Program-made: the position numbers and the translations under genes
Shown here: positions 542-37,300 of the stretch, in pieces
Position numbering within the stretch: the first letter of the stretch is position 1
Layout: the number at the start of each line of letters is the position of its first letter
The notes under the pieces: model-generated
Told to the model about the DNA's origin: nothing
Seen by the model: only the letters and a program-made list of their open reading frames with translations
Database searches by the model: none
Assembly: GCA_023267475.1 (NCBI GenBank)
Contig: JAHFND010000001.1
Coordinates: forward strand, 1 to 38,577
DNA from: a bacterium
GTDB lineage: Bacteria; Patescibacteriota; Minisyncoccia; Phycocordibacterales; UBA5272
Length of the DNA stretch: 38,577 bases
Reading direction: 5' to 3'

Positions 542-2542
542 ATGAAGACGAAAACATTGGCACTATCACAAAAGGATTTCGCCTGGGTAAAGATGACCAG
601 AGCGTATATGGAAAAGACTGCAAAGGCATATATTGAACACAAGAAAAAAGTGTATGCAGAGATAAAAAGTATTCCAAAAAATGAGCGTACATTTTTAAAC
701 ACTCTTTATGCTCTAGAGAGATGTGATGATAAGTTTGATAATTTTTTAGGTAAGATGCACTTACTTTCTGAAGTGTCTACAAATAAAGAAATAAGAGAAG
801 CTGGGAATAAAGTTGCCACAGAATCATCAGAGAAACTCATTGATGTGGAATACGATAAGGGAATGTTTTTGGCTGTAAAAGAATATTACGAAGACAATTT
901 AAAAAAAGAAAAGAAATCATTGCGAAAAGAGGATATTAAACTTCTAGAAGAGACATATCGTGAATATAAAAGAATGGGCTTTGATCTTCCAGATAAAACT
1001 CAGAAGAGATTAAAGACTCTGATGAAAAAATTATCGAAGCTTTCTATTTCTTTTCGTAAGAATATAAATGATTATCAGGATTATATTCTTTGCACGGAGG
1101 AAGATTTGGGCGGTTTGTCAGAAAGGTTTATATCATCTCTACCAAGACATACAGATGGTAGATATATAGTCTCACTACAGTATCCTCATATGTTACCTTT
1201 TATGTCAGAGTCTAGTAATAGAGAAAAAAGAAAGGAGTTAGCTTTAAAAAATCTAAAGAAAGGTGGCATAAAAAATCTAAAAATAATTGAAGAGATAGTA
1301 AAATTGCGTCACGAAGTATCTGAGATATTAGGGTACAAACATCATGCAGATTTTAGAACGGAGAATCGCATGGCAAAGAAAGGTGAGATAGTCGAAAAGT
1401 TTCAGGAAGAGTTATTGAAGAGCATAAGTCCTCTCGTTAAGAAAGATATGGCACTACTTCGTGAACATGCAAAAGCTATTGGTATAAAAAAATTGGAACA
1501 TTATGATGTAGCTTATATTTCTAATCTTCTCAAGAAAAAATTGTATGATGTAAATCAAGAAGAAGAGCGTCAATATTTTGAATATGAACATGTTCGTGAT
1601 GAAATGTTTAAAATGTTCGGCACTCTGTTTGGTATTTCTATAAATAAGACTAATATAAAACTTTGGCACAAAGATGTAAATCTATATCAGGTGAATGATA
1701 AAGATAGAACATTAATTGGATATTTTGCTATGGATATGTTTCCTCGTGAAGGTAAATTTGGACATGCAATGTTATCTGATTTTGTCACTTCTCATGAGAG
1801 TGGTTATAGAAAAGAAGAATATATAGCACCAGTATCTTGTATTGTTTGTAATTTTCCAAGTCCAACAAAGAAAGCACCGACACTTTTGTCTATAGCTGAA
1901 ATAGAGACATTATTTCATGAATTCGGTCACTGCATGCATGCGACATTATCAAGAGTTAGAATTGAATCTCAATCTGGTACTAATGTGGCCTGGGACTTCG
2001 TGGAGACTCCTTCACAGATAATGGAAAACTGGATATGGGATAAACAAGTTATATCAAGTTTTTCTAAGCATTATATTACAGGTAAGAAGATGCCAAGTAT
2101 TTTGATTGATAAGATTATACATGCTAAAAAGTTTTTAGGTGCTTATCATTACACTAGACAGTTAATGTTTAGTAAATTAGATATGGATTTACATACAGGC
2201 AAAGTAAGTGATGCTAAAGGTGCTTGGAGAAAGTTAAATAAGATTTACTTTGATTTAGATTTACCAGAAAAGGAGACTCTTTTTCCCGCAGGATTTGGTC
2301 ACTTAGTTGGTTATGATGCAGGGTACTATTCATATCTTTGGGCTCTTGTGTATGCATGTGATGCGTTCGAAGAATTTAAAACAAAAGGAAATAAAAATGT
2401 AATGAAGAATACTGAGATCGGCATGAAGTGGCGTCGTGAAGTATTAGAGAAGGGAAGTAGTGAAAATGAAATAGATTTAGTTAAGAATTTCTTAGGACGT
2501 AAGCCAAGTAATAAAGCATTCTTGAAAGAAATTGGGATATAG
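542..2542 (+). CDS. M3-family zinc metallopeptidase (oligoendopeptidase / thimet-Dcp-PrlC type)
   Basis: 666-aa ORF with the HEXXH zinc motif in LFHEFGHCMHA. The length and C-terminal catalytic domain layout are typical of peptidase family M3. Confidence 0.85.
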   Translation: MKTKTLALSQKDFAWVKMTRAYMEKTAKAYIEHKKKVYAEIKSIPKNERTFLNTLYALERCDDKFDNFLGKMHLLSEVSTNKEIREAGNKVATESSEKLIDVEYDKGMFLAVKEYYEDNLKKEKKSLRKEDIKLLEETYREYKRMGFDLPDKTQKRLKTLMKKLSKLSISFRKNINDYQDYILCTEEDLGGLSERFISSLPRHTDGRYIVSLQYPHMLPFMSESSNREKRKELALKNLKKGGIKNLKIIEEIVKLRHEVSEILGYKHHADFRTENRMAKKGEIVEKFQEELLKSISPLVKKDMALLREHAKAIGIKKLEHYDVAYISNLLKKKLYDVNQEEERQYFEYEHVRDEMFKMFGTLFGISINKTNIKLWHKDVNLYQVNDKDRTLIGYFAMDMFPREGKFGHAMLSDFVTSHESGYRKEEYIAPVSCIVCNFPSPTKKAPTLLSIAEIETLFHEFGHCMHATLSRVRIESQSGTNVAWDFVETPSQIMENWIWDKQVISSFSKHYITGKKMPSILIDKIIHAKKFLGAYHYTRQLMFSKLDMDLHTGKVSDAKGAWRKLNKIYFDLDLPEKETLFPAGFGHLVGYDAGYYSYLWALVYACDAFEEFKTKGNKNVMKNTEIGMKWRREVLEKGSSENEIDLVKNFLGRKPSNKAFLKEIGI

Positions 2543-2648
2543 CCCAATCTACTTTGTTGTGAAGTATTTTTGTTCCCGCAATGTACTACTTGTACATTTT
2601 AGTCACAAAAATACTTCACGCCTCGTATCTTAGGCTATCTACCAATTT
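2529..2648 (+). repeat. Nested-palindrome intergenic repeat, copy A
   Basis: Outer arms aaattgggatatagcc / ggctatctaccaattt (14/16 bp). 5' box caatctactttgttg. Inner stem gaagtatttttgt / acaaaaatacttc. Central hairpin aatgtac-tact-tgtacatt. 3' box cgcctcgtatct. The 5' arm contains the last codons and the TAG stop of the M3 peptidase gene. Confidence 0.8.
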
Positions 2649-2675
2649 CTTTGTCTTGGTTAGCATTTGACTAGA

Positions 2676-4562: not shown

Positions 4563-4564
4563 TA

Positions 4565-4689
4565 AGAAAATCATAAATCATTTTATCTGCGTTGTTAAAA
4601 GAAATTTTTTCTCCACGCGACGTACTATGTGTACGTCTTGGTCGCAAAAATTTCTTTCGCCTAGCATCTAAAACAATTTCTGCTTTTCT
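4565..4689 (+). repeat. Nested-palindrome intergenic repeat, copy B
   Basis: Starts 3 nt after the typA stop. Outer arms agaaaatcataaatcatttta / taaaacaatttctgcttttct (17/21). 5' box tatctgcgttgtt. Inner stem aaagaaatttttt / aaaaatttcttt. Centre gacgtac-tatgt-gtacgtc. 3' box cgcctagcatct. Confidence 0.8.
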
Positions 4690-4710
4690 TCATGCGTGTA
4701 TACTATATTT

Positions 4711-6968: not shown

Positions 6969-8762
6969 ATGGAAATTCGAAACTTTTCAATCATCGCGCA
7001 TATTGATCACGGTAAATCTACTCTTGCAGATAGATTACTTGAAGTTACTGCGACTATAGATAAACGTCACATGAAGGAACAAGTATTAGACAATATGGAA
7101 CTTGAACGTGAGCGCGGTATTACTATAAAAATGACACCAGTGCGCATGGAATATAAATCAAATGACGGGAAAGTTTATAATCTAAACTTGATAGATACTC
7201 CAGGGCACATAGATTTCTCTTATGAAGTATCACGATCACTTCGCGCAGTGGAGGGGACACTTTTACTTGTTGATTCTACTCAAGGTGTGCAGGCGCAGAC
7301 ACTTACTACTCTTGAAATGGCTAAAGAGACAGGCCTCACAATTATTCCAGTTATTACAAAGATAGATAGTCCGCTCGCACACGTAGAAGATGTACAAGAT
7401 GAAATTATAGAAATGCTTCATTGTAAACGTGAAGATATCATTGCTGTGTCTGGTAAGACTGGTGAAGGTGTAAAAGAATTGATTGAAGAAATAATAAAAA
7501 GAGTACCTGCTCCAAAGAGTGAATATGTAGAAGATACAGGCAAGCAAACACGCGCACTTATTTTCGATTTTGAATATAGTAATCATATGGGAGTTATTTT
7601 GTATGTGAGAGTTCTTGATGGAAATGTGAAAGCAGGGGACACATTACTTTTTACACAATCAGAACATAAGTTTATTATTCGAGAAGTAGGTACATTTTCG
7701 CCAGAAAAGAAAGAAAAAGATTCTGTTAAAGCAGGAGAGATTGGATATATAGTTACAGGCATTAAAGAACCAGGTATTGCACGTGTGGGAGATACTGTGA
7801 CTACTTTTTCTAATCCACTCCCAGCTTTTCCTGGATATGCTGAACCTGTACCGATTGTGTTTGCGTCTATCTACCCTGAATCACAAGATGAGTTTGATGA
7901 TTTAAGAAGTTCACTTTCAAAATTGAAGTTATCAGACTCTTCTCTTACTTTTGAAGAAGAATCATCCGGTGCATTAGGACGAGGATTTAGATGTGGTTTT
8001 CTTGGAATGCTTCACTTAGAAATTGTAACTGAGAGATTGAGACGCGAGTTTGATCAAGAGTTAGTGGTAACTACTCCATCTATAACTTACGAGGTTACAT
8101 TAAAGAATGGAGAGGTGGAAATGGTATATACCCCGATACATTTTCCAGATCATGGTCAGTATATATCAGTAAAAGAGCCGTGGATTATTTTAACTCTTAT
8201 CACACCACATGATTATGTAAGTCCACTTATGCAATTATTCCCACCTCATGAAGCAGAAGTTCTTGAACTTAAAGATTGGGGGCACGACAGAGTGCGTATC
8301 ACACTTAATATGCCACTTAGAGAGCTAATGCGTAATTTCTTTAATGAAGTAAAGTCTGCATCGAGCGGGTATGCTTCTATTGTTTATGAAAAAGGTGATA
8401 TGAGACCAGCAGATGTAACACGACTTGATGTATATGTCGCAGAAGAGAGAGTGACTGCATTTTCTCGTGTTATTCCAGAATACCGCACACGTGAGGAGTC
8501 AGAAGAGGTGGTTGAAAAATTGGAGAAAATCTTACCAAGAGAGATGTTTCGCGTAAAGATACAAGCTTATGTAAGAGGACGCATAATAGCATCACGTTCT
8601 ATTGCTCCGATGAAAAAGGATGTGACAGGTTATATGTACGGAGGGGATATTACTCGAAAGATGAAGTTACGTGAAAAGCAAAAGCGCGGAAAAGACAGAA
8701 TGGAAAGAGAGGGAAAGGTTCATATATCACACGATACATTCCTCAATATGATGAAACCATAA
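6969..8762 (+). CDS. lepA: Elongation factor 4 (LepA)
   Basis: 597 aa. AHIDHGKST, DTPGHIDF, TKID motifs. LepA-specific C-terminal domain (..YGGDITRKMKLREKQKRGKDRM..). Confidence 0.95.
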   Translation: MEIRNFSIIAHIDHGKSTLADRLLEVTATIDKRHMKEQVLDNMELERERGITIKMTPVRMEYKSNDGKVYNLNLIDTPGHIDFSYEVSRSLRAVEGTLLLVDSTQGVQAQTLTTLEMAKETGLTIIPVITKIDSPLAHVEDVQDEIIEMLHCKREDIIAVSGKTGEGVKELIEEIIKRVPAPKSEYVEDTGKQTRALIFDFEYSNHMGVILYVRVLDGNVKAGDTLLFTQSEHKFIIREVGTFSPEKKEKDSVKAGEIGYIVTGIKEPGIARVGDTVTTFSNPLPAFPGYAEPVPIVFASIYPESQDEFDDLRSSLSKLKLSDSSLTFEEESSGALGRGFRCGFLGMLHLEIVTERLRREFDQELVVTTPSITYEVTLKNGEVEMVYTPIHFPDHGQYISVKEPWIILTLITPHDYVSPLMQLFPPHEAEVLELKDWGHDRVRITLNMPLRELMRNFFNEVKSASSGYASIVYEKGDMRPADVTRLDVYVAEERVTAFSRVIPEYRTREESEEVVEKLEKILPREMFRVKIQAYVRGRIIASRSIAPMKKDVTGYMYGGDITRKMKLREKQKRGKDRMEREGKVHISHDTFLNMMKP

Positions 8763-8878
8763 GCCAAAAATTAGTTCAGATGCTAGGCGCGAAAGAAATT
8801 TCGATAGAAATGTACACTTAGTACATTGACCGAGAAAATTCGCATCGCAACAACGCAAATGAAGTAATTTTTGGCTTA
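8760..8878 (-). repeat. Nested-palindrome intergenic repeat, copy C (inverted orientation)
   Basis: Perfect 14-bp outer arms taagccaaaaatta / taatttttggctta; the first arm includes the lepA TAA stop. Read on the minus strand it has the 5' box catttgcgttgttg, the centre aatgtac-taagt-gtacatt and the 3' box cgcctagcatct. Confidence 0.8.
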
Positions 8879-9041
8879 TGGTAGATGATCTGGGTTTACT
8901 TAAGTAACGGTATGAGTAAGAATCCAACCATTCCTATTATTGCAACTAAAGAAATAGCTGCCCAGACGCGATTCAATGTCTTACGGTTTTTTGAAGTGAA
9001 TATCATACTGTATATGTGATAAGCTAGATAATAACAAGAAA

Positions 9042-9469: not shown

Positions 9470-9712
9470 ATGGATACAAAAACAGTAGAAATTTACAGTA
9501 CATCATCTTGTCACTTTTGCCATATGGCGAAAGAGTGGATGACAGAAAAAAATATACCTTTTATTGATTATAATGTTGGAGAAGATCTTGAAAAGAGAAA
9601 AGAGATGGTAGAGATGACAGGGCAGATGGGTGTGCCAGTTATTAAGATAGGGAATGAGGTGATGATTGGATTCAATCAAGACAAGATGTCTCAGTTGTTG
9701 GGGGTGCAATAA
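9470..9712 (+). CDS. Glutaredoxin-like small redox protein (NrdH/YruB type)
   Basis: 80 aa. CHFC active site at residues 14-17. ..GVPVIKIG..IGFN.. thioredoxin-fold pattern. Confidence 0.8.
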   Translation: MDTKTVEIYSTSSCHFCHMAKEWMTEKNIPFIDYNVGEDLEKRKEMVEMTGQMGVPVIKIGNEVMIGFNQDKMSQLLGVQ

Positions 9713-9718
9713 TTATTT

Positions 9719-9879
9719 GGCAGGCTCGGTCACAAAATCAGTTTTTCGCTTCACTCAAAACAAAAGATTTCGCGACCCCCATTCGAGTCTGCACGTACGA
9801 CACGCAGGTGTCGTACTCTCCCAGCACAAAATACAAAAAGTGATATCAAACGATATCACTTTTTGTATTTTGTGCTGGG
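9719..9879 (-). repeat. tRNA-Phe-linked composite structure (copy G of the repeat family plus tRNA-derived segments)
   Basis: Perfect 28-bp inverted repeat at 9820-9847 / 9852-9879; its distal arm is the tRNA-Phe 3' end. 9-bp hairpin at 9795-9816. The T-arm-like strands ggcag (9719-9723) and ctgca (9789-9793) are separated by 65 nt. That gap contains the hairpin ggtcacaaaatc (9728-9739) / gatttcgcgacc (9766-9777). Confidence 0.6.
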
Positions 9880-9945
9880 AGGCAGGCTCGAACTGCCGAC
9901 CCTTTGCTCTTCAGGCAAATGCTCTACCAACTGAGCTATCCCAGC
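9873..9945 (-). tRNA. tRNA-Phe (anticodon GAA)
   Basis: The minus strand gctgggatagctcagttggtagagcatttgcctGAAgagcaaagggtcggcagttcgagcctgcctcccagca folds as a canonical cloverleaf. CCA is not encoded. Confidence 0.95.
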
Positions 9946-10022
9946 TTATTTCCTCTAGTTCCAAGCTTTTAGCTTCTATCTAGTCCATATATCCTATCAT
10001 AAAATAGACTTACTTGGAAGAT

Positions 10023-14845: not shown

Positions 14846-14886
14846 AAAGAAAGCAACCGCTCCCACGGTTGCTTTCTTTTTGTTTT
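14846..14886 (+). terminator. Strong intrinsic terminator
   Basis: aaagaaagcaaccg-ctccca-cggttgctttcttt (14-bp stem) followed by ttgttttt. Confidence 0.8.
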
Positions 14887-15007
14887 TGCCAAAAATTGTC
14901 TCATCTACTTTGTCGCTAAGAAATTTTTATCATCAACGTACTAGTGTGTACGTTTATTTCAAAAAATTTCTATGCTTCGCGTATCTAAGACAATTTTTGG
15001 CAAAAAC
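14882..15007 (+). repeat. Nested-palindrome intergenic repeat, copy D
   Basis: Perfect 20-bp outer arms gtttttgccaaaaattgtct / agacaatttttggcaaaaac. 5' box catctactttgtcg. Inner stem agaaattttt / aaaaatttct. Centre aacgtac-tagtgt-gtacgtt. 3' box ttcgcgtatct. Confidence 0.85.
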
Positions 15008-15075
15008 AATACACTGATATCTGACATGTTTTAATACTTAAAAAAGACCCCTATTTATGATATAATAGTCCGACA

Positions 15076-23651: not shown

Positions 23652-23791
23652 TGATGGAGAGAGTGGGATGTTCGGTCACAAAACTACCTCACTTCGTTCG
23701 AAGTAGTTTCGCGACCCCGTATTCGAATCCCACCGAAAAGTGATGCAGATCACTTTTCTTCTCTACGCAGTTTTTCACTACGTTCAAAACT
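23652..23791 (-). repeat. tRNA-Ser-linked composite structure (copy H of the repeat family plus duplicated tRNA 3' segment)
   Basis: ggagagagtgggat (23656-23669) duplicates 14 nt of the adjacent tRNA 3' end. The T-stem strands gtgggat (23663-23669) and atcccac (23727-23733) are separated by 57 nt. That gap contains the hairpin ggtcacaaaactac (23674-23687) / gtagtttcgcgacc (23703-23716). Further hairpins at 23735-23758 and 23765-23783. Confidence 0.6.
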
Positions 23792-23881
23792 TGGCGGAGA
23801 GAGTGGGATTCGAACCCACGGACCTAATAAAAGGTCGACGGTTTAGTAAACCGTTGATTTAAACCACTCATCCATCTCTCC
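23792..23881 (-). tRNA. Type II (long variable arm) tRNA, Ser-like, anticodon ACU; CCA encoded
   Basis: Minus strand: ggagaga tg gat gagtggtttaa atc a acggt ttACTaa accgt cgaccttttattaggtcc gtggg ttcgaat cccac tctctcc g cca. The layout is collinear with E. coli tRNA-Ser. Confidence 0.8.
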
Positions 23882-23905: not shown

Positions 23906-23995
23906 TGGCGGAGACGATGGGATTTGAACCCATGAGGGGCGTGAACCCCTGCCTCGTTAGCAGTGAGGTGCCTTCGACCACTCAGCCACGTCTCC
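23906..23995 (-). tRNA. tRNA-Ser (anticodon GCU), CCA encoded
   Basis: Minus strand: ggagacg tg gct gagtggtcgaa ggc a cctca ctGCTaa cgagg caggggttcacgcccctc atggg ttcaaat cccat cgtctcc g cca. Extended -10 TGtTAGAAT lies about 11 nt upstream. Confidence 0.92.
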
Positions 23996-30503: not shown

Positions 30504-30506
30504 GTT

Positions 30507-30621
30507 GTCTATAAAATAAGCAATTATTTCGTTGGAAGAATTTTTTGTTCCCACAATGTACTATGTGTACATTTTAGTCACAAAAAATTCTTCCGCCTCG
30601 TACTAATCTTATTTTCTAAAC
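30507..30621 (+). repeat. Nested-palindrome intergenic repeat, copy E
   Basis: Starts 4 nt after the pilB stop. Outer arms gtctataaaataag / cttattttctaaac (12/14). 5' box ttatttcgttgg. Inner stem gaagaattttttgt / acaaaaaattcttc. Centre aatgtac-tatgt-gtacatt. 3' box cgcctcgtacta. Confidence 0.8.
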
Positions 30622-30707
30622 AAATGAATTCTATAAAATATTGACTATCAACTGCCCTATGTTAGTTATGCAATTGTTTTTCATAACTCGCTTGTTATAC
30701 TAAAAAT

Positions 30708-37122: not shown

Positions 37123-37124
37123 AT

Positions 37125-37245
37125 AAATTAATAAAACTTTTTATCTACTTTGTCGTCACGAAATTTTTCTCATTCAATGTAGGATTATTACATTTTCTTC
37201 AAAAAATTCCTATGCTTCGCGTATATAAAGCAGTTTTATTAATTT
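37125..37245 (+). repeat. Nested-palindrome intergenic repeat, copy F
   Basis: Starts 3 nt after the stop at 37122. Perfect 14-bp outer arms aaattaataaaact / agttttattaattt. 5' box tatctactttgtcg. Centre aatgtag-gatta-ttacatt. 3' box ttcgcgtatat. Confidence 0.8.
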
Positions 37246-37300
37246 ACAATGAATTCTGTTTTAGCCCTTATTTACAAGTGTTTTATGGTATAATGTGTAA

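What the first reader, a model, noticed from the sequence alone, without database searches (positions are those of the whole stretch)
9719..9879. tRNA-Phe is followed by a decayed tRNA-like module whose T loop carries a repeat-family hairpin
Read on the tRNA (minus) strand, the order is as follows:
1. tRNA-Phe ends in ...ggcag ttcgagc ctgcc tcccagc a.
2. A perfect 21-bp palindromic spacer follows.
3. Then gctggga, identical to tRNA-Phe positions 1-7. The palindrome therefore extends to 28 bp and can sequester the mature 3' acceptor strand.
4. Then a 9-bp hairpin, gtacgacac-ctgc-gtgtcgtac.
5. Then tgcag-actcgaat-[hairpin ggtcgcgaaatc...gattttgtgacc]-gagc-ctgcc. This is the tRNA-Phe T arm with about 55 extra nt in its loop.

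No acceptor 3' strand follows. The inserted hairpin is homologous to the one in the tRNA-Ser-linked structure at 23652-23791. It also resembles the 3' half of repeat copies A and E (tagtcacaaaaatacttcacgcctcgtatc).

Possible readings are a remnant of site-specific integration into a tRNA T loop, a hairpin-loop-targeting mobile element caught in a tRNA pseudogene, or a functional tRNA-like trailer.
Basis: partly seen in the sequence, partly recalled or inferred. Interest (0 to 1): 0.6.

Follow-up and report, generated by a model that had tools for sequence, protein, structure and literature searches.

The report
Structured mini-insert behind tRNA-Phe gene
The 160 bases after this phenylalanine tRNA gene are not a rotted tRNA copy but one worn copy of a widespread, gene-less, tightly folded insert that sits behind about a third of this tiny bacterium's tRNA genes, wrapped in a backward and a forward copy of the tRNA's tail; it behaves like a very small mobile element and is not in the RNA catalogues searched.

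Summary
Its reading as a decayed tRNA with a hairpin in the T loop does not hold.

The "T-arm 5' strand" is the reverse complement of tRNA nt 57-64. It closes an 8-bp helix (P1) under the conserved hairpin GGUCGCGAAA...UUUGUGACC (P3).

The same layout recurs throughout the family: X, CUGC-loop hairpin, inverted X', core, X.
- A covariance model built only from other genomes finds 12 copies in this 461-kb genome. Eleven lie directly 3' of a tRNA on its strand and one is at a contig edge.
- It finds copies in 51 of 53 genomes of the genus, but in only 6 of 150 sampled genomes of the phylum.
- P1, P2 and P3 covary.
- tRNA-Phe genes 99-100% identical to this one are followed by empty sites, short forms, long forms or another insert.
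- Identical hairpins sit behind different tRNAs.
- Sibling copies split the 3' end of topA and carry a diverged replacement end.

My best reading is a non-autonomous integrative mini-element, here a short form lacking P2 and partly decayed. The enzyme is unknown.

No Rfam family or paper found covers it. The E. coli RtT repeats share the layout.

Earlier agents of this scan reported the same family on other genomes.

The parts
9873..9945 (-). tRNA-Phe(GAA), intact
   Evidence: ARAGORN. Rfam RF00005, 71 bits.
9872..9889 (-). X1: tRNA nt 57-74 (GAGCCTGCCTCCCAGCAC). This is the segment that the module repeats forward and backward.
   Evidence: Coordinates. Comparison with the module.
9818..9881 (-). 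Perfect 30+30-nt palindrome with a GTTT loop. It has an A-tract, a stem and a T-tract, so it looks like a terminator. It pairs the tRNA's last 10 nt with GTGCTGGGAG.
   Evidence: the repeat finder I2, 100% complementary. The minimum-free-energy fold of the whole transcript uses it.
9818..9827 (-). X'a: GTGCTGGGAG, the inverted copy of tRNA nt 65-74. It contains a copy of acceptor nt 1-7.
9795..9816 (-). H1: a 9-bp hairpin with a CUGC loop. It is a conserved family part. The identical 22 nt sit behind tRNA-Arg(CCU) in another genome (L022).
9785..9792 (-). X'b, the P1 5' strand: GCAGACTC, the reverse complement of tRNA nt 57-64 with one G-to-A change.
   Evidence: Relatives L160 and L161 have GCAGGCTC.
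9778..9784 (-). Junction GAATGGG. This is the short-form remnant of the GAAAG..P2..CGG junction of long forms.
   Evidence: Comparison with L160 and L161 and alignment A1.
9728..9777 (-). P3: a conserved hairpin. Its base is GGUCGCGAAA/UUUGUGACC with fixed G.U, C-G, G.U pairs. The upper stem is variable.
9719..9727 (-). X2, the P1 3' strand: GAGCCTGCC, a direct repeat of tRNA nt 57-65. The acceptor part is lost here.
23656..23757 (-). Sibling copy behind tRNA-Ser(ACU). It comprises H1 (23736-23757), X'b (23725-23733), P3 (23674-23716) and X2 (23656-23673, which includes the acceptor strand).

Best explanation
The stretch 9719-9871 is one copy of a family of small (about 80-170 nt), protein-less, highly structured inserts. 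They lodge in the 3' end of conserved genes, mostly tRNA and tmRNA genes.

Unit layout:
X (tail of the target gene) - hairpin with a CUGC loop that can act as a terminator - X' (inverted copy of X) - junction GAAAG - P2 - GG - P3 - X again.

How I think it works (inferred):
- The element enters at T-loop position 56/57. A second class enters at the very 3' end of the tRNA.
- It brings its own copy of the gene's tail plus a terminator, so the gene stays intact.
- The old tail is pushed downstream, where it pairs with X' to close helix P1 under the conserved core.
- The folded X'-core-X structure probably forms on the tRNA-sense strand as single-stranded DNA or RNA. I infer that this is the part the recombination machinery needs.
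- The enzyme acts in trans and is not identified.

The tRNA-Phe copy is a reduced short form. It has no P2, one mismatch in P1, and X2 is cut back to 9 nt. It is probably no longer mobile.

Shown: family membership, tRNA linkage, covariation, patchy and variable occupancy, mosaic parts, and replacement of a gene end in topA siblings.
Inferred: the order of events and the enzyme.
For: 1. Copies in this genome. R1 was built from 40 sequences of other genomes. It finds 12 copies here. Eleven lie directly 3' of a tRNA on the same strand, behind 10 of the 36 tRNA genes found, with two in tandem behind tRNA-Gln(UUG). One is at a contig start.

2. Distribution. R1 hits 51 of 53 genomes of the genus, with 0-20 copies each. 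Two genomes 98-100% complete have none. Only 6 of 150 evenly drawn genomes of the phylum have hits. This is patchy and dispensable.

3. The tRNA-Phe site varies. tRNA-Phe genes 99-100% identical to this one are followed by:
- a plain terminator (G016, G018);
- the palindrome only (G063);
- this short form;
- long forms with other P3 variants (G065, G035, G014, G029);
- a third kind of insert (G034, G069).

4. Direct repeats. Repeats of at least 12 of 13 nt of the gene tail lie 81-171 nt apart in 34 copies. Some are 18/18, for example Gln(CUG) here. Tandem arrays contain identical units (L032) or different units (L013, L006).

5. Mosaicism. The identical 43-47-nt P3 sits with 5 different X'b arms, and the identical 22-nt H1 with up to 5 different X'b arms. 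These occur in species whose flanking DNA around the tRNA-Phe locus aligns at about 66-84% identity.

6. topA siblings. In L135, L113 and L038 the unit sits inside the 3' end of topA (Pfam Zn_ribbon_Top1). In L135 the gene now ends in ...TKTIPERCSDKKCPNHRPDKVAK*. A displaced reading frame PKTIPERCSDKTCPMHNPHKLDQETKPKKK* follows P3. It is a diverged second copy of the gene end, not a local duplicate.

7. Structure. 90% of cells are paired, against 77% when shuffled and 39-52% when slid. P2 pair 20-75 reads GC15 CG9 AU7 UA4 UG3. P1 pair 12-126 reads UA17 CG11 AU7 GC2. Non-Watson-Crick cells in P1 favour G.U over A.C, 38 to 21. In P3 the count is G.U 81 against A.C 1, of which 80 are the two G.U pairs fixed by the search pattern.
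Against: - No recombinase travels with the units. Each genome of the genus has one Xer-like tyrosine recombinase, including the two genomes without units.
- Large serine recombinases do not track the units. G063 has 19 units and no such enzyme.
- This genome has no HUH transposase and no reverse transcriptase hit. It is 80% complete.
- Among roughly 150 loci only one has a recombinase near a real unit (L097). A second tblastn hit, L138, lies near a chance motif match.
- No free or circular form, and no empty/filled pair within one strain, could be shown. Same-strain contigs are identical. The empty-site search was uninformative.
- A pre-adapted element does not explain why X' always matches the local target while H1 and P3 are shared between targets. 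Recombination among units or templated correction within the hairpin has to be assumed.
- Covariation and strand-specific G.U pairs fit a functional RNA just as well.
Confidence: 0.58

Rival explanations
1. A functional, co-transcribed trailer RNA, like E. coli RtT RNA. The tRNA transcript reads on into a stable structured RNA: H1, then P1 closing a junction with P2 and P3. Its P1 is built from a sense and an antisense copy of the tRNA tail. It mimics the acceptor/T-arm stack, so it could be cut out by tRNA-processing enzymes or could hold or regulate a tRNA-binding factor. On this view the units are inherited and co-evolve with their tRNA.
For: - P1, P2 and P3 covary, and the junction bases GAAAG, CGSAG and GAG-N-CGG are conserved.
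- The G.U, C-G, G.U pairs are fixed and G.U exceeds A.C on the tRNA-sense strand.
- The unit is always on the tRNA strand.
- E. coli RtT units have the same layout: X' GGGGAAGGAT, then GAGAAG, a core, then X AATCCTTCCCCCACCACCA. RtT is annotated as a small RNA, rttR. One preprint describes it as involved in processing of the tyrT transcript, probably modulating the stringent response, and up-regulated under stress (bioRxiv 10.1101/2024.07.17.603846).
Against: - The core lies downstream of a terminator-like hairpin: the palindrome here, H1 in other classes.
- Occupancy is patchy and dispensable. Two complete genomes of the genus have none, and 144 of 150 sampled genomes of the phylum have none.
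- The same tRNA-Phe carries none, or very different, units.
- Units also sit in topA, with a displaced gene end.
- The acceptor-like helix X'a:X2a is often decayed on one side.
- Identical P3 or H1 sequences behind different tRNAs in different species point to recent transfer, not long co-evolution.
- No expression data could be obtained.
Confidence: 0.22
2. Home-grown structure without mobility. Strong hairpins next to tRNA genes grow by replication template-switching (quasi-palindrome correction and extension) and by unequal crossing-over between tRNA-tail repeats. This would produce X, X' and X around a hairpin at each locus independently.
For: - The arms are perfect (30/30 here). X'a is present in G063 without the core.
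- The unrelated 125-nt repeats of this genome also have outer stems of up to 29 nt (82-90% complementary). I did not check this.
- X' always matches the local target although H1 and P3 are shared.
- Tandem identical units occur (L032).
Against: - It cannot create the conserved core. GAAAG, P2 and P3 are near-identical across classes of Patescibacteria.
- It cannot explain identical 47-nt P3 sequences at different tRNAs in different species.
- It cannot explain the diverged replacement end of topA.
- It may still explain how the arms are kept matched after insertion.
Confidence: 0.12
3. One reading: a decayed duplicate of tRNA-Phe whose T loop was hit by a hairpin-loop-targeting mobile hairpin related to the 125-nt repeats.
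For: - TCGAAT resembles a T loop.
- GAGC-CTGCC is the T-loop and T-stem 3' half.
- A copy of nt 1-7 lies upstream.
- There is weak local similarity to repeats A and B.
Against: - The left arm is the complement of nt 57-65, not a copy of nt 49-56.
- No D or anticodon arm remnant is present.
- The same non-tRNA parts (H1, junction, P3) recur at 12 loci here and at hundreds in the genus.
- No unit was found with the arms but an empty loop.
- Similarity to the 125-nt family is not significant (E>=0.1).
Confidence: 0.04

Closest known systems
Genomic islands and prophages integrated in tRNA/tmRNA genes (T-loop and 3'-end sublocations), and their integrase-less derivatives (CIMEs, cis-mobilizable elements). 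Recalled from my own knowledge: Williams 2002; Pavlovic et al. 2004.
   Same: - A direct repeat of the gene's 3' part flanks the insert, and the gene stays intact.
- The same two sublocations are used, as are tmRNA and the 3' end of a protein gene.
- Units accrete in tandem.
- The displaced old gene end diverges from the new one (topA siblings).
   Different: - The insert is only 80-170 nt, with no gene and no integrase anywhere nearby.
- It carries an inverted copy of the target next to a conserved, covarying three-helix core.
- Up to 20 copies per 0.5-1 Mb genome.
E. coli RtT repeats / rttR (Rfam RF00391) in the tyrT-tyrV operon
   Same: - Units of 178 nt lie behind a tRNA gene, each ending in the last 19 nt of tRNA-Tyr.
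- An inverted copy (GGGGAAGGAT), followed by GAGAAG, opens a structured core.
- The helix-to-helix length is about 107 nt, as in the long form.
- Units are in tandem.
   Different: - No detectable sequence or model homology of the core. R1 gives 6 bits, E about 1, from P1 only. No RF00391 match appeared in the E<=1 Rfam scan of 7 loci, including those holding the two window copies.
- There is no GGUCGCG hairpin and no CUGC hairpin.
- Found at one locus in E. coli, against many tRNAs here.
Folded single-strand recombination sites: integron attC and the CTX-phage attP(+). Recalled from my own knowledge.
   Same: - An inverted repeat folds on one strand to rebuild a duplex like the target.
- The stem base is conserved and the top variable.
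- Bulged bases are fixed and one strand is preferred.
- In L066 two units flank a single gene.
   Different: - No integron integrase or attI is present.
- The arms carry the target's own sequence rather than a universal R box.
- The target is a tRNA gene, not attI or dif.
- No strand-exchange evidence exists.
Prokaryotic MITE/REP-type palindromic repeats, including the 125-nt family of this genome (earlier finding e1-3771755)
   Same: Small, non-coding, hairpin-rich, multi-copy, sited at gene 3' ends. The outer stem is made of local sequence.
   Different: - No terminal inverted repeats of its own and no short fixed target duplication.
- Strict gene-tail target, with 9-18-nt direct plus inverted copies.
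- Not homologous to the 125-nt family.

Membership tests
tRNA gene or recognisable tRNA pseudogene | Cloverleaf detected by tRNA finders | tested here: not met
   ARAGORN and Rfam RF00005 find only the five real tRNAs of the window and nothing at 9719-9871.
tRNA gene or recognisable tRNA pseudogene | The T-arm 5' strand is a copy of nt 49-56 | tested here: not met
   The left arm is the reverse complement of nt 57-65. Val and Thr siblings decide this.
tRNA-linked structured mini-insert family (this scan; model R1) | Matches a covariance model built from other members | tested here: met
   31.5 bits, E=1e-5. The model was built without this sequence.
tRNA-linked structured mini-insert family (this scan; model R1) | Layout X - CUGC hairpin - X' - core - X, directly 3' of a tRNA on its strand | tested here: met
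   In this copy P2 is missing and X2 is cut back to 9 nt.
Integrative elements in tRNA genes (attL/attR) | A direct repeat of the tRNA 3' part flanks the insert, and the tRNA is intact | tested here: met
   9 nt here. At least 12/13 nt in 34 siblings, and 18/18 in some.
Integrative elements in tRNA genes (attL/attR) | Empty site in relatives | tested here: met
   G016 and G018 have an identical tRNA-Phe followed by a plain terminator. This holds only at species distance, about 66-84% nucleotide identity in the alignable flanks of the locus.
Integrative elements in tRNA genes (attL/attR) | The element encodes, or lies next to, its recombinase | tested here: not met
   No ORF lies in the unit. 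There is one Xer-like gene per genome, elsewhere. Serine recombinases do not track the units.
Integrative elements in tRNA genes (attL/attR) | Excision or a circular form | not testable with these tools
Collection scans were uninformative.
RtT RNA (RF00391) | Match to the Rfam model | tested here: not met
   No RF00391 hit at E<=1 on loci holding the two window copies and five others. R1 hits RtT units only through P1.
RtT RNA (RF00391) | The unit ends in the tRNA 3' end and contains its inverted copy | tested here: met
   for E. coli; here.
Integron attC | Conserved R''/R' boxes (RYYYAAC / GTTRRRY) and an integron integrase | tested here: not met
   The arms carry tRNA sequence. The only tyrosine recombinase is one conserved gene of about 320 aa per genome that I read as Xer-like. 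Its subtype was not checked.
125-nt palindromic repeat family of this genome | Significant match to a profile of the family | tested here: not met
   nhmmer E=0.8-10 on modules, and E=0.1-0.4 in the reverse test.

The most novel reading that the evidence does not exclude
The units are a new class of ORF-less, site-specific mobile elements. Their active form would be a folded single strand, entering for example by natural transformation. Its X'-core-X fold rebuilds a duplex copy of the target, so that a host enzyme (the lone Xer-like recombinase) or plain homology can insert it into the most conserved sequences of the genome. X' would be rewritten to each new target by templated copying within the hairpin. 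The E. coli RtT repeats would be a relic of the same principle.
Probability: 0.25. Interest if true: 0.85.

Novelty: new variant of a known kind. Interest (0 to 1): 0.62.

Why it matters
If these units are mobile, they are among the smallest site-specific inserts known. They are about 100 nt with no gene, and they fill up to 40% of the tRNA loci of genomes that are otherwise stripped to essentials. That raises three questions:
- which enzyme moves them;
- whether single-stranded, folded DNA is the substrate;
- how the target-matching arm is rewritten.

They also give a comparative handle on the unexplained RtT repeats of E. coli.

There is a practical side too. They create tRNA-tail duplicates and long palindromes that break assemblies: one public contig of this strain ends inside the palindrome. 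These can also be misread as scars of lost islands or as tRNA pseudogenes.

Tried and rejected
- Known RNA families. Rfam 15 gave nothing at gathering threshold on the window, nor at E<=1 on 7 loci. I compared hammerhead, twister, pistol, hatchet and K-turn consensus from memory only, and none fits.
- Viral contigs. No copy of the strict motif.
- Literature. Five searches and three papers read gave no description of the family. They yielded only a note that the E. coli rttR region shows raised coverage in "mobilome" DNA after stress.
- Enzyme partner. Tyrosine recombinase, serine recombinase, HUH transposase and reverse transcriptase show no association.
- Strain-level empty site. Exact-protein look-ups returned identical or too-short contigs. 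A scan for the empty Gln(CUG) site found nothing, but neither did a scan for the filled allele, so it was uninformative.
- Sequencing reads.
- Kissing pair between the H1 loop (CUGC) and P2 (GCAG/GGAG). Rejected by eye, because loop and P2 variants do not covary.
- Copy of the mature tRNA by reverse transcription. Rejected, because X' continues into the genomic trailer, not CCA.
- Insertion into a T loop with a GAAT duplication. Rejected by the Val and Thr arms.
Full report
**Observation**

Read on the minus strand, tRNA-Phe(GAA) occupies 9945-9873 (ARAGORN; Rfam tRNA 71 bits). The features that follow are:

- **Palindrome.** The tRNA's last 10 nt (CTCCCAGCAC) begin a perfect 30-nt arm (9881-9852). 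Its partner (9847-9818) ends in GTGCTGGGAG (repeat I2, 100% complementary, 4-nt loop).
- **H1.** The 9-bp hairpin GTACGACAC-CUGC-GTGTCGTAC lies at 9816-9795.
- **Arm, junction, hairpin, arm.** GCAGACTC (9792-9785), GAATGGG (9784-9778), the hairpin GGTCGCGAAA...TTTGTGACC (9777-9728), and GAGCCTGCC (9727-9719). The last is identical to tRNA nt 57-65.

No acceptor strand follows. The next feature is the stop codon of a convergent glutaredoxin gene (9470-9712; Pfam PF00462).

**It is a family, not a one-off**

The strict hairpin motif occurs five times in this 461-kb, 36% G+C, 80%-complete genome (reversed control: none). Each visible case lies just 3' of a tRNA on its strand: Gln, Leu, Phe, Ser, and one at a contig start.

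I built a covariance model (R1) from 40 long-form copies taken only from other genomes. In this genome it finds 12 copies:

- 11 lie directly behind tRNA genes: Thr-UGU, Gln-UUG (two in tandem), Ala, Ile-UAU, Gln-CUG, Arg-GCG, Gly-GCC, Leu-CAA, Phe and Ser-ACU;
- 1 lies at a contig edge.

So 10 of the 36 tRNA genes found carry at least one copy. The Phe copy scores 31.5 bits (E=1e-5).

R1 hits 51 of 53 genomes of the genus, with 0 to 20 copies each. Two genomes of 98-100% completeness have none. Only 6 of 150 evenly drawn genomes of the phylum at 85% completeness or more have hits (stricter filters, so a lower bound).

The strict motif also occurs in at least 120 stretches of species-representative genomes. 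Most are MAGs labelled Paceibacterota, Nomurabacteria, Saccharibacteria, Moraniibacteriota, Adlerbacteria and the like. A few are Elusimicrobia or Atribacteria bins. G+C-rich hits in other phyla sit inside reading frames and lack the flanking parts, so I take them as chance. None occurs in viral contigs.

Of 132 module-like hits, 96 have a tRNA or tmRNA within 500 nt upstream on the same strand. Another 12 have too little sequence upstream to tell.

**Anatomy**

Comparing copies shows one layout:

X - hairpin with a CUGC (or CUUC) loop - X' - GAAAG - P2 - GG - P3 - X

- **X** is 9-18 nt of the target's tail. **X'** is its inverted copy.
- In the T-loop class X starts at nt 57. The left arm is the reverse complement of nt 57-65, not a copy of the T-stem 5' strand. 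This is decided by tRNAs with unusual loops. Val (loop ...GACC) has GGGGGGTC, Thr (...AATC) has CAGGATT, and Leu (...AAGT) has GGACTT.
- X' and the second X form helix P1 under a three-way junction.
- P2 carries a conserved GA/GA internal loop (GNC-GSA-G...C-GA-GN'C).
- P3 has an invariant base with G.U, C-G, G.U pairs and a bulged A or U, and a free upper stem.
- On alignment A1, 90.4% of cells pair. The figure is 77% when partners are shuffled and 39-52% when slid. 187 cells change on both sides, against 69 expected.
  - P2 pair 20-75 reads GC15 CG9 AU7 UA4 UG3.
  - P1 pair 12-126 reads UA17 CG11 AU7 GC2.
  - The P3 base is invariant by construction of the search and says nothing.
- Non-Watson-Crick cells in P1 favour G.U (38) over A.C (21). 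In P3 the count is G.U 81 against A.C 1, but 80 of the 81 are the two G.U pairs fixed by the search pattern. So the fold belongs to the tRNA-sense strand, as RNA or as single-stranded DNA.
- A second class uses the very 3' end of the tRNA plus its trailer as X (for example CCACAAAATACACAA in L044). There the CUGC hairpin is itself the terminator-like hairpin.

This genus mostly has a short form in which GAAAG-P2-CGG is reduced to GAAUA(C)GG. At the tRNA-Phe locus, relatives G035 and G014 keep a near-identical H1 (two substitutions) and X'b, but have P2 and other P3 variants. So the copy here looks like a P2-less derivative. It also has a G-to-A change that puts an A.C into P1, and its X2 stops after nt 65.

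**Signs of insertion and movement**

(a) *The tRNA-Phe site varies.* tRNA-Phe genes 99-100% identical to this one in ten genomes are followed by:
- a plain terminator (G016, G018);
- the palindrome with the GTGCTGGG extension only (G063);
- the short form (here);
- long forms with P3 bases GGTTACGAAT, GGCCGGCGAG or GGGCTGCGAG (G065, G035, G014, G029);
- a different insert (G034, G069).

These genomes are only about 66-84% identical over the alignable DNA flanking the locus. This is therefore species-level, not strain-level, polymorphism.

(b) *Repeat spacing and arrays.* Well-kept direct repeats lie 81-171 nt apart in 34 copies. Arrays contain identical units (L032) or different units (L013, L006, and tRNA-Gln-UUG here). 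In L013 the tRNA-proximal unit has the perfect repeat and the distal one is decayed.

(c) *Mosaic parts.* The same 43-nt or 47-nt P3 occurs with five different X'b arms and 4-5 different H1 hairpins in different genomes. The same 22-nt H1 occurs with up to five different arms. The H1 of this Phe copy is identical to one behind tRNA-Arg-CCU in G026. Other P3 variants have wholly different upper stems, so identity cannot be due to constraint on every base. It points to recent copying between loci and species.

(d) *topA siblings.* In three MAGs the unit lies inside the 3' end of topA (Pfam Zn_ribbon_Top1).
- In L135 the gene now ends ...MMEGTKTIPERCSDKKCPNHRPDKVAK*.
- A CUGC hairpin, X' (GGTTTTTGTG, complementary to CACAAAAACC in the gene) and the core follow.
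- Right after P3 an open frame reads PKTIPERCSDKTCPMHNPHKLDQETKPKKK*. It is a second version of the same gene end with different codons and residues.

A local duplication would give identical copies. A diverged replacement end is what integrative elements that carry a spare gene end produce. The target there (GGCAC|AAAAAC) resembles the tRNA 3' end plus trailer used by the 3'-end class.

(e) *Two copies around a gene.* In L066 two copies 1.4 kb apart flank a secreted trypsin-like protease gene.

**What is missing**

- No unit contains an ORF.
- Every genome of the genus has exactly one conserved tyrosine recombinase of about 320 aa, which I read as Xer-like. A few genomes carry one or two further, weaker hits. 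The two unit-free genomes have it too.
- Large serine recombinases number 0-6 per genome and do not track unit number. G063 has 19 units and none; G017 has no units and one.
- This genome has no Y1 HUH transposase and no reverse transcriptase hit.
- tblastn with the recombinases of this genome against about 150 loci found two hits. One lies near a real unit (L097) and one near a chance motif match (L138).
- Public contigs of the same strain are identical.
- Scans for an empty Gln-CUG site were uninformative, because the filled allele is not in that collection either.

The enzyme, and direct proof of movement, are therefore lacking.

**Mechanism I commit to (58%)**

I read this as a non-autonomous integrative mini-element. 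The steps below are inferred.

1. It enters at T-loop position 56/57, or at the tRNA 3' end.
2. It supplies a new gene tail plus terminator.
3. It displaces the old tail, which then pairs with X'.
4. The folded X'-core-X is the recognised part. This resembles integron attC or the CTX-phage attP, which rebuild a duplex site from one strand (recalled knowledge).
5. The match of X' to each target, despite shared H1 and P3, needs either recombination between units or templated correction within the hairpin (quasi-palindrome template switching).

The same process could have produced the perfect 30-nt palindrome here.

**Rivals**

- **A functional trailer RNA of the RtT kind (22%).**
- *For:* covariation; the sense-strand fold; and the E. 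coli RtT parallel. Each 178-nt RtT unit has GGGGAAGGAT (the complement of tRNA-Tyr nt 59-68), then GAGAAG and a structured core, and ends in AATCCTTCCCCCACCACCA.
  - *Limits of the parallel:* R1 aligns the units in register but at about 6 bits. Rfam's RtT model does not hit the units. So this is a likeness of layout, not shown homology.
  - *Against:* the position behind a terminator-like hairpin, patchiness, the topA copies, and the mosaic parts.
- **Purely local growth of palindromes (12%).** It cannot make the conserved core.
- **The literal "tRNA pseudogene with a hairpin in its T loop" (4%).** The arm analysis contradicts it.

The minimum-free-energy fold of the whole transcript does exactly that. 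Whether this happens in the cell is unknown.

**Relation to the 125-nt repeats**

A profile of the six window copies finds at least 18 copies in the genome. It hits the tRNA-linked units only at E=0.8-10. The reverse test gives E=0.1-0.4. One of the six has GGTCGCAAAA.

I did not check that. Homology between them is not shown.

**Novelty**

- No Rfam 15 family covers the unit.
- Five literature searches and three papers gave no description.
- Earlier agents of this scan reported the same family on other genomes. Their conclusions were leads that I re-tested here, not evidence.
  - the short form and its derivation at the Phe locus;
  - the census in this genome, the genus and the phylum;
  - the mosaic H1/X'b/P3 pattern;
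  - the 3'-end class;
  - the topA replacement-end case;
  - the lack of any recombinase correlation.
- I class it as a new variant of a known kind: integrative elements at tRNA genes, and RtT-like repeats.

Noticed in passing
window 23792-23881 (-) and 23906-23995 (-): Two tRNA-Ser genes lie in tandem. The second has anticodon ACU, which is unusual for bacteria. It is a G34-to-A relative of the neighbouring GCU gene, and it is the one that carries the mini-insert.
   Followed up: no
G000:C25:2366-2439: A tRNA-Ile with anticodon UAU, a rare way to read AUA without lysidine. It also carries a long-form unit with a perfect 18-nt tail repeat interrupted by 2 extra nt.
   Followed up: no
L135 about 820-1240 (minus strand of the locus); also L113 and L038: The same unit splits the 3' end of topA (C4 zinc-ribbon region). 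In L135 a displaced, still open 30-codon alternative C-terminus lies right after P3.
   Followed up: partly
L066 1-1560: Two near-identical units 1.4 kb apart flank a 250-aa secreted trypsin-like peptidase gene (Pfam Trypsin_2). The arrangement is cassette-like, with no tRNA in view.
   Followed up: partly
window 2525-2652, 4563-4690, 8756-8882, 14880-15009, 30505-30625, 37123-37250: The 125-nt nested-palindrome repeats have at least 18 copies genome-wide by nhmmer. The middle stem covaries, and the top hairpin ATGTAC-N5-GTACAT is conserved.
   Followed up: partly
G000:C14:1-1560 (-): The open frame around a large serine recombinase gene (Resolvase + Recombinase domains) runs on to ...GIEPLTSGVQNRRSTI near the contig edge. 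I guess from experience, without testing, that this tail is a frame running over a tRNA gene, which would suggest a tRNA-integrated element. Such recombinases number 0-6 per genome in the genus.
   Followed up: partly
many units, e.g. window 23656-23673, L017, L026, L031: In a subset of units the second copy of the tRNA tail has 2 extra nt (AC or AT) right after G57-A58. This puts a fixed bulge at the top of P1. It is unexplained and may mark the joint.
   Followed up: no
L184 (public contig of the same strain): The contig ends inside the 30-nt palindrome after tRNA-Phe, so these structures break short-read assemblies.
   Followed up: no
window 9666-9983 (+): A 105-aa open frame runs antisense across the unit and the tRNA. 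It is almost certainly spurious.
   Followed up: no
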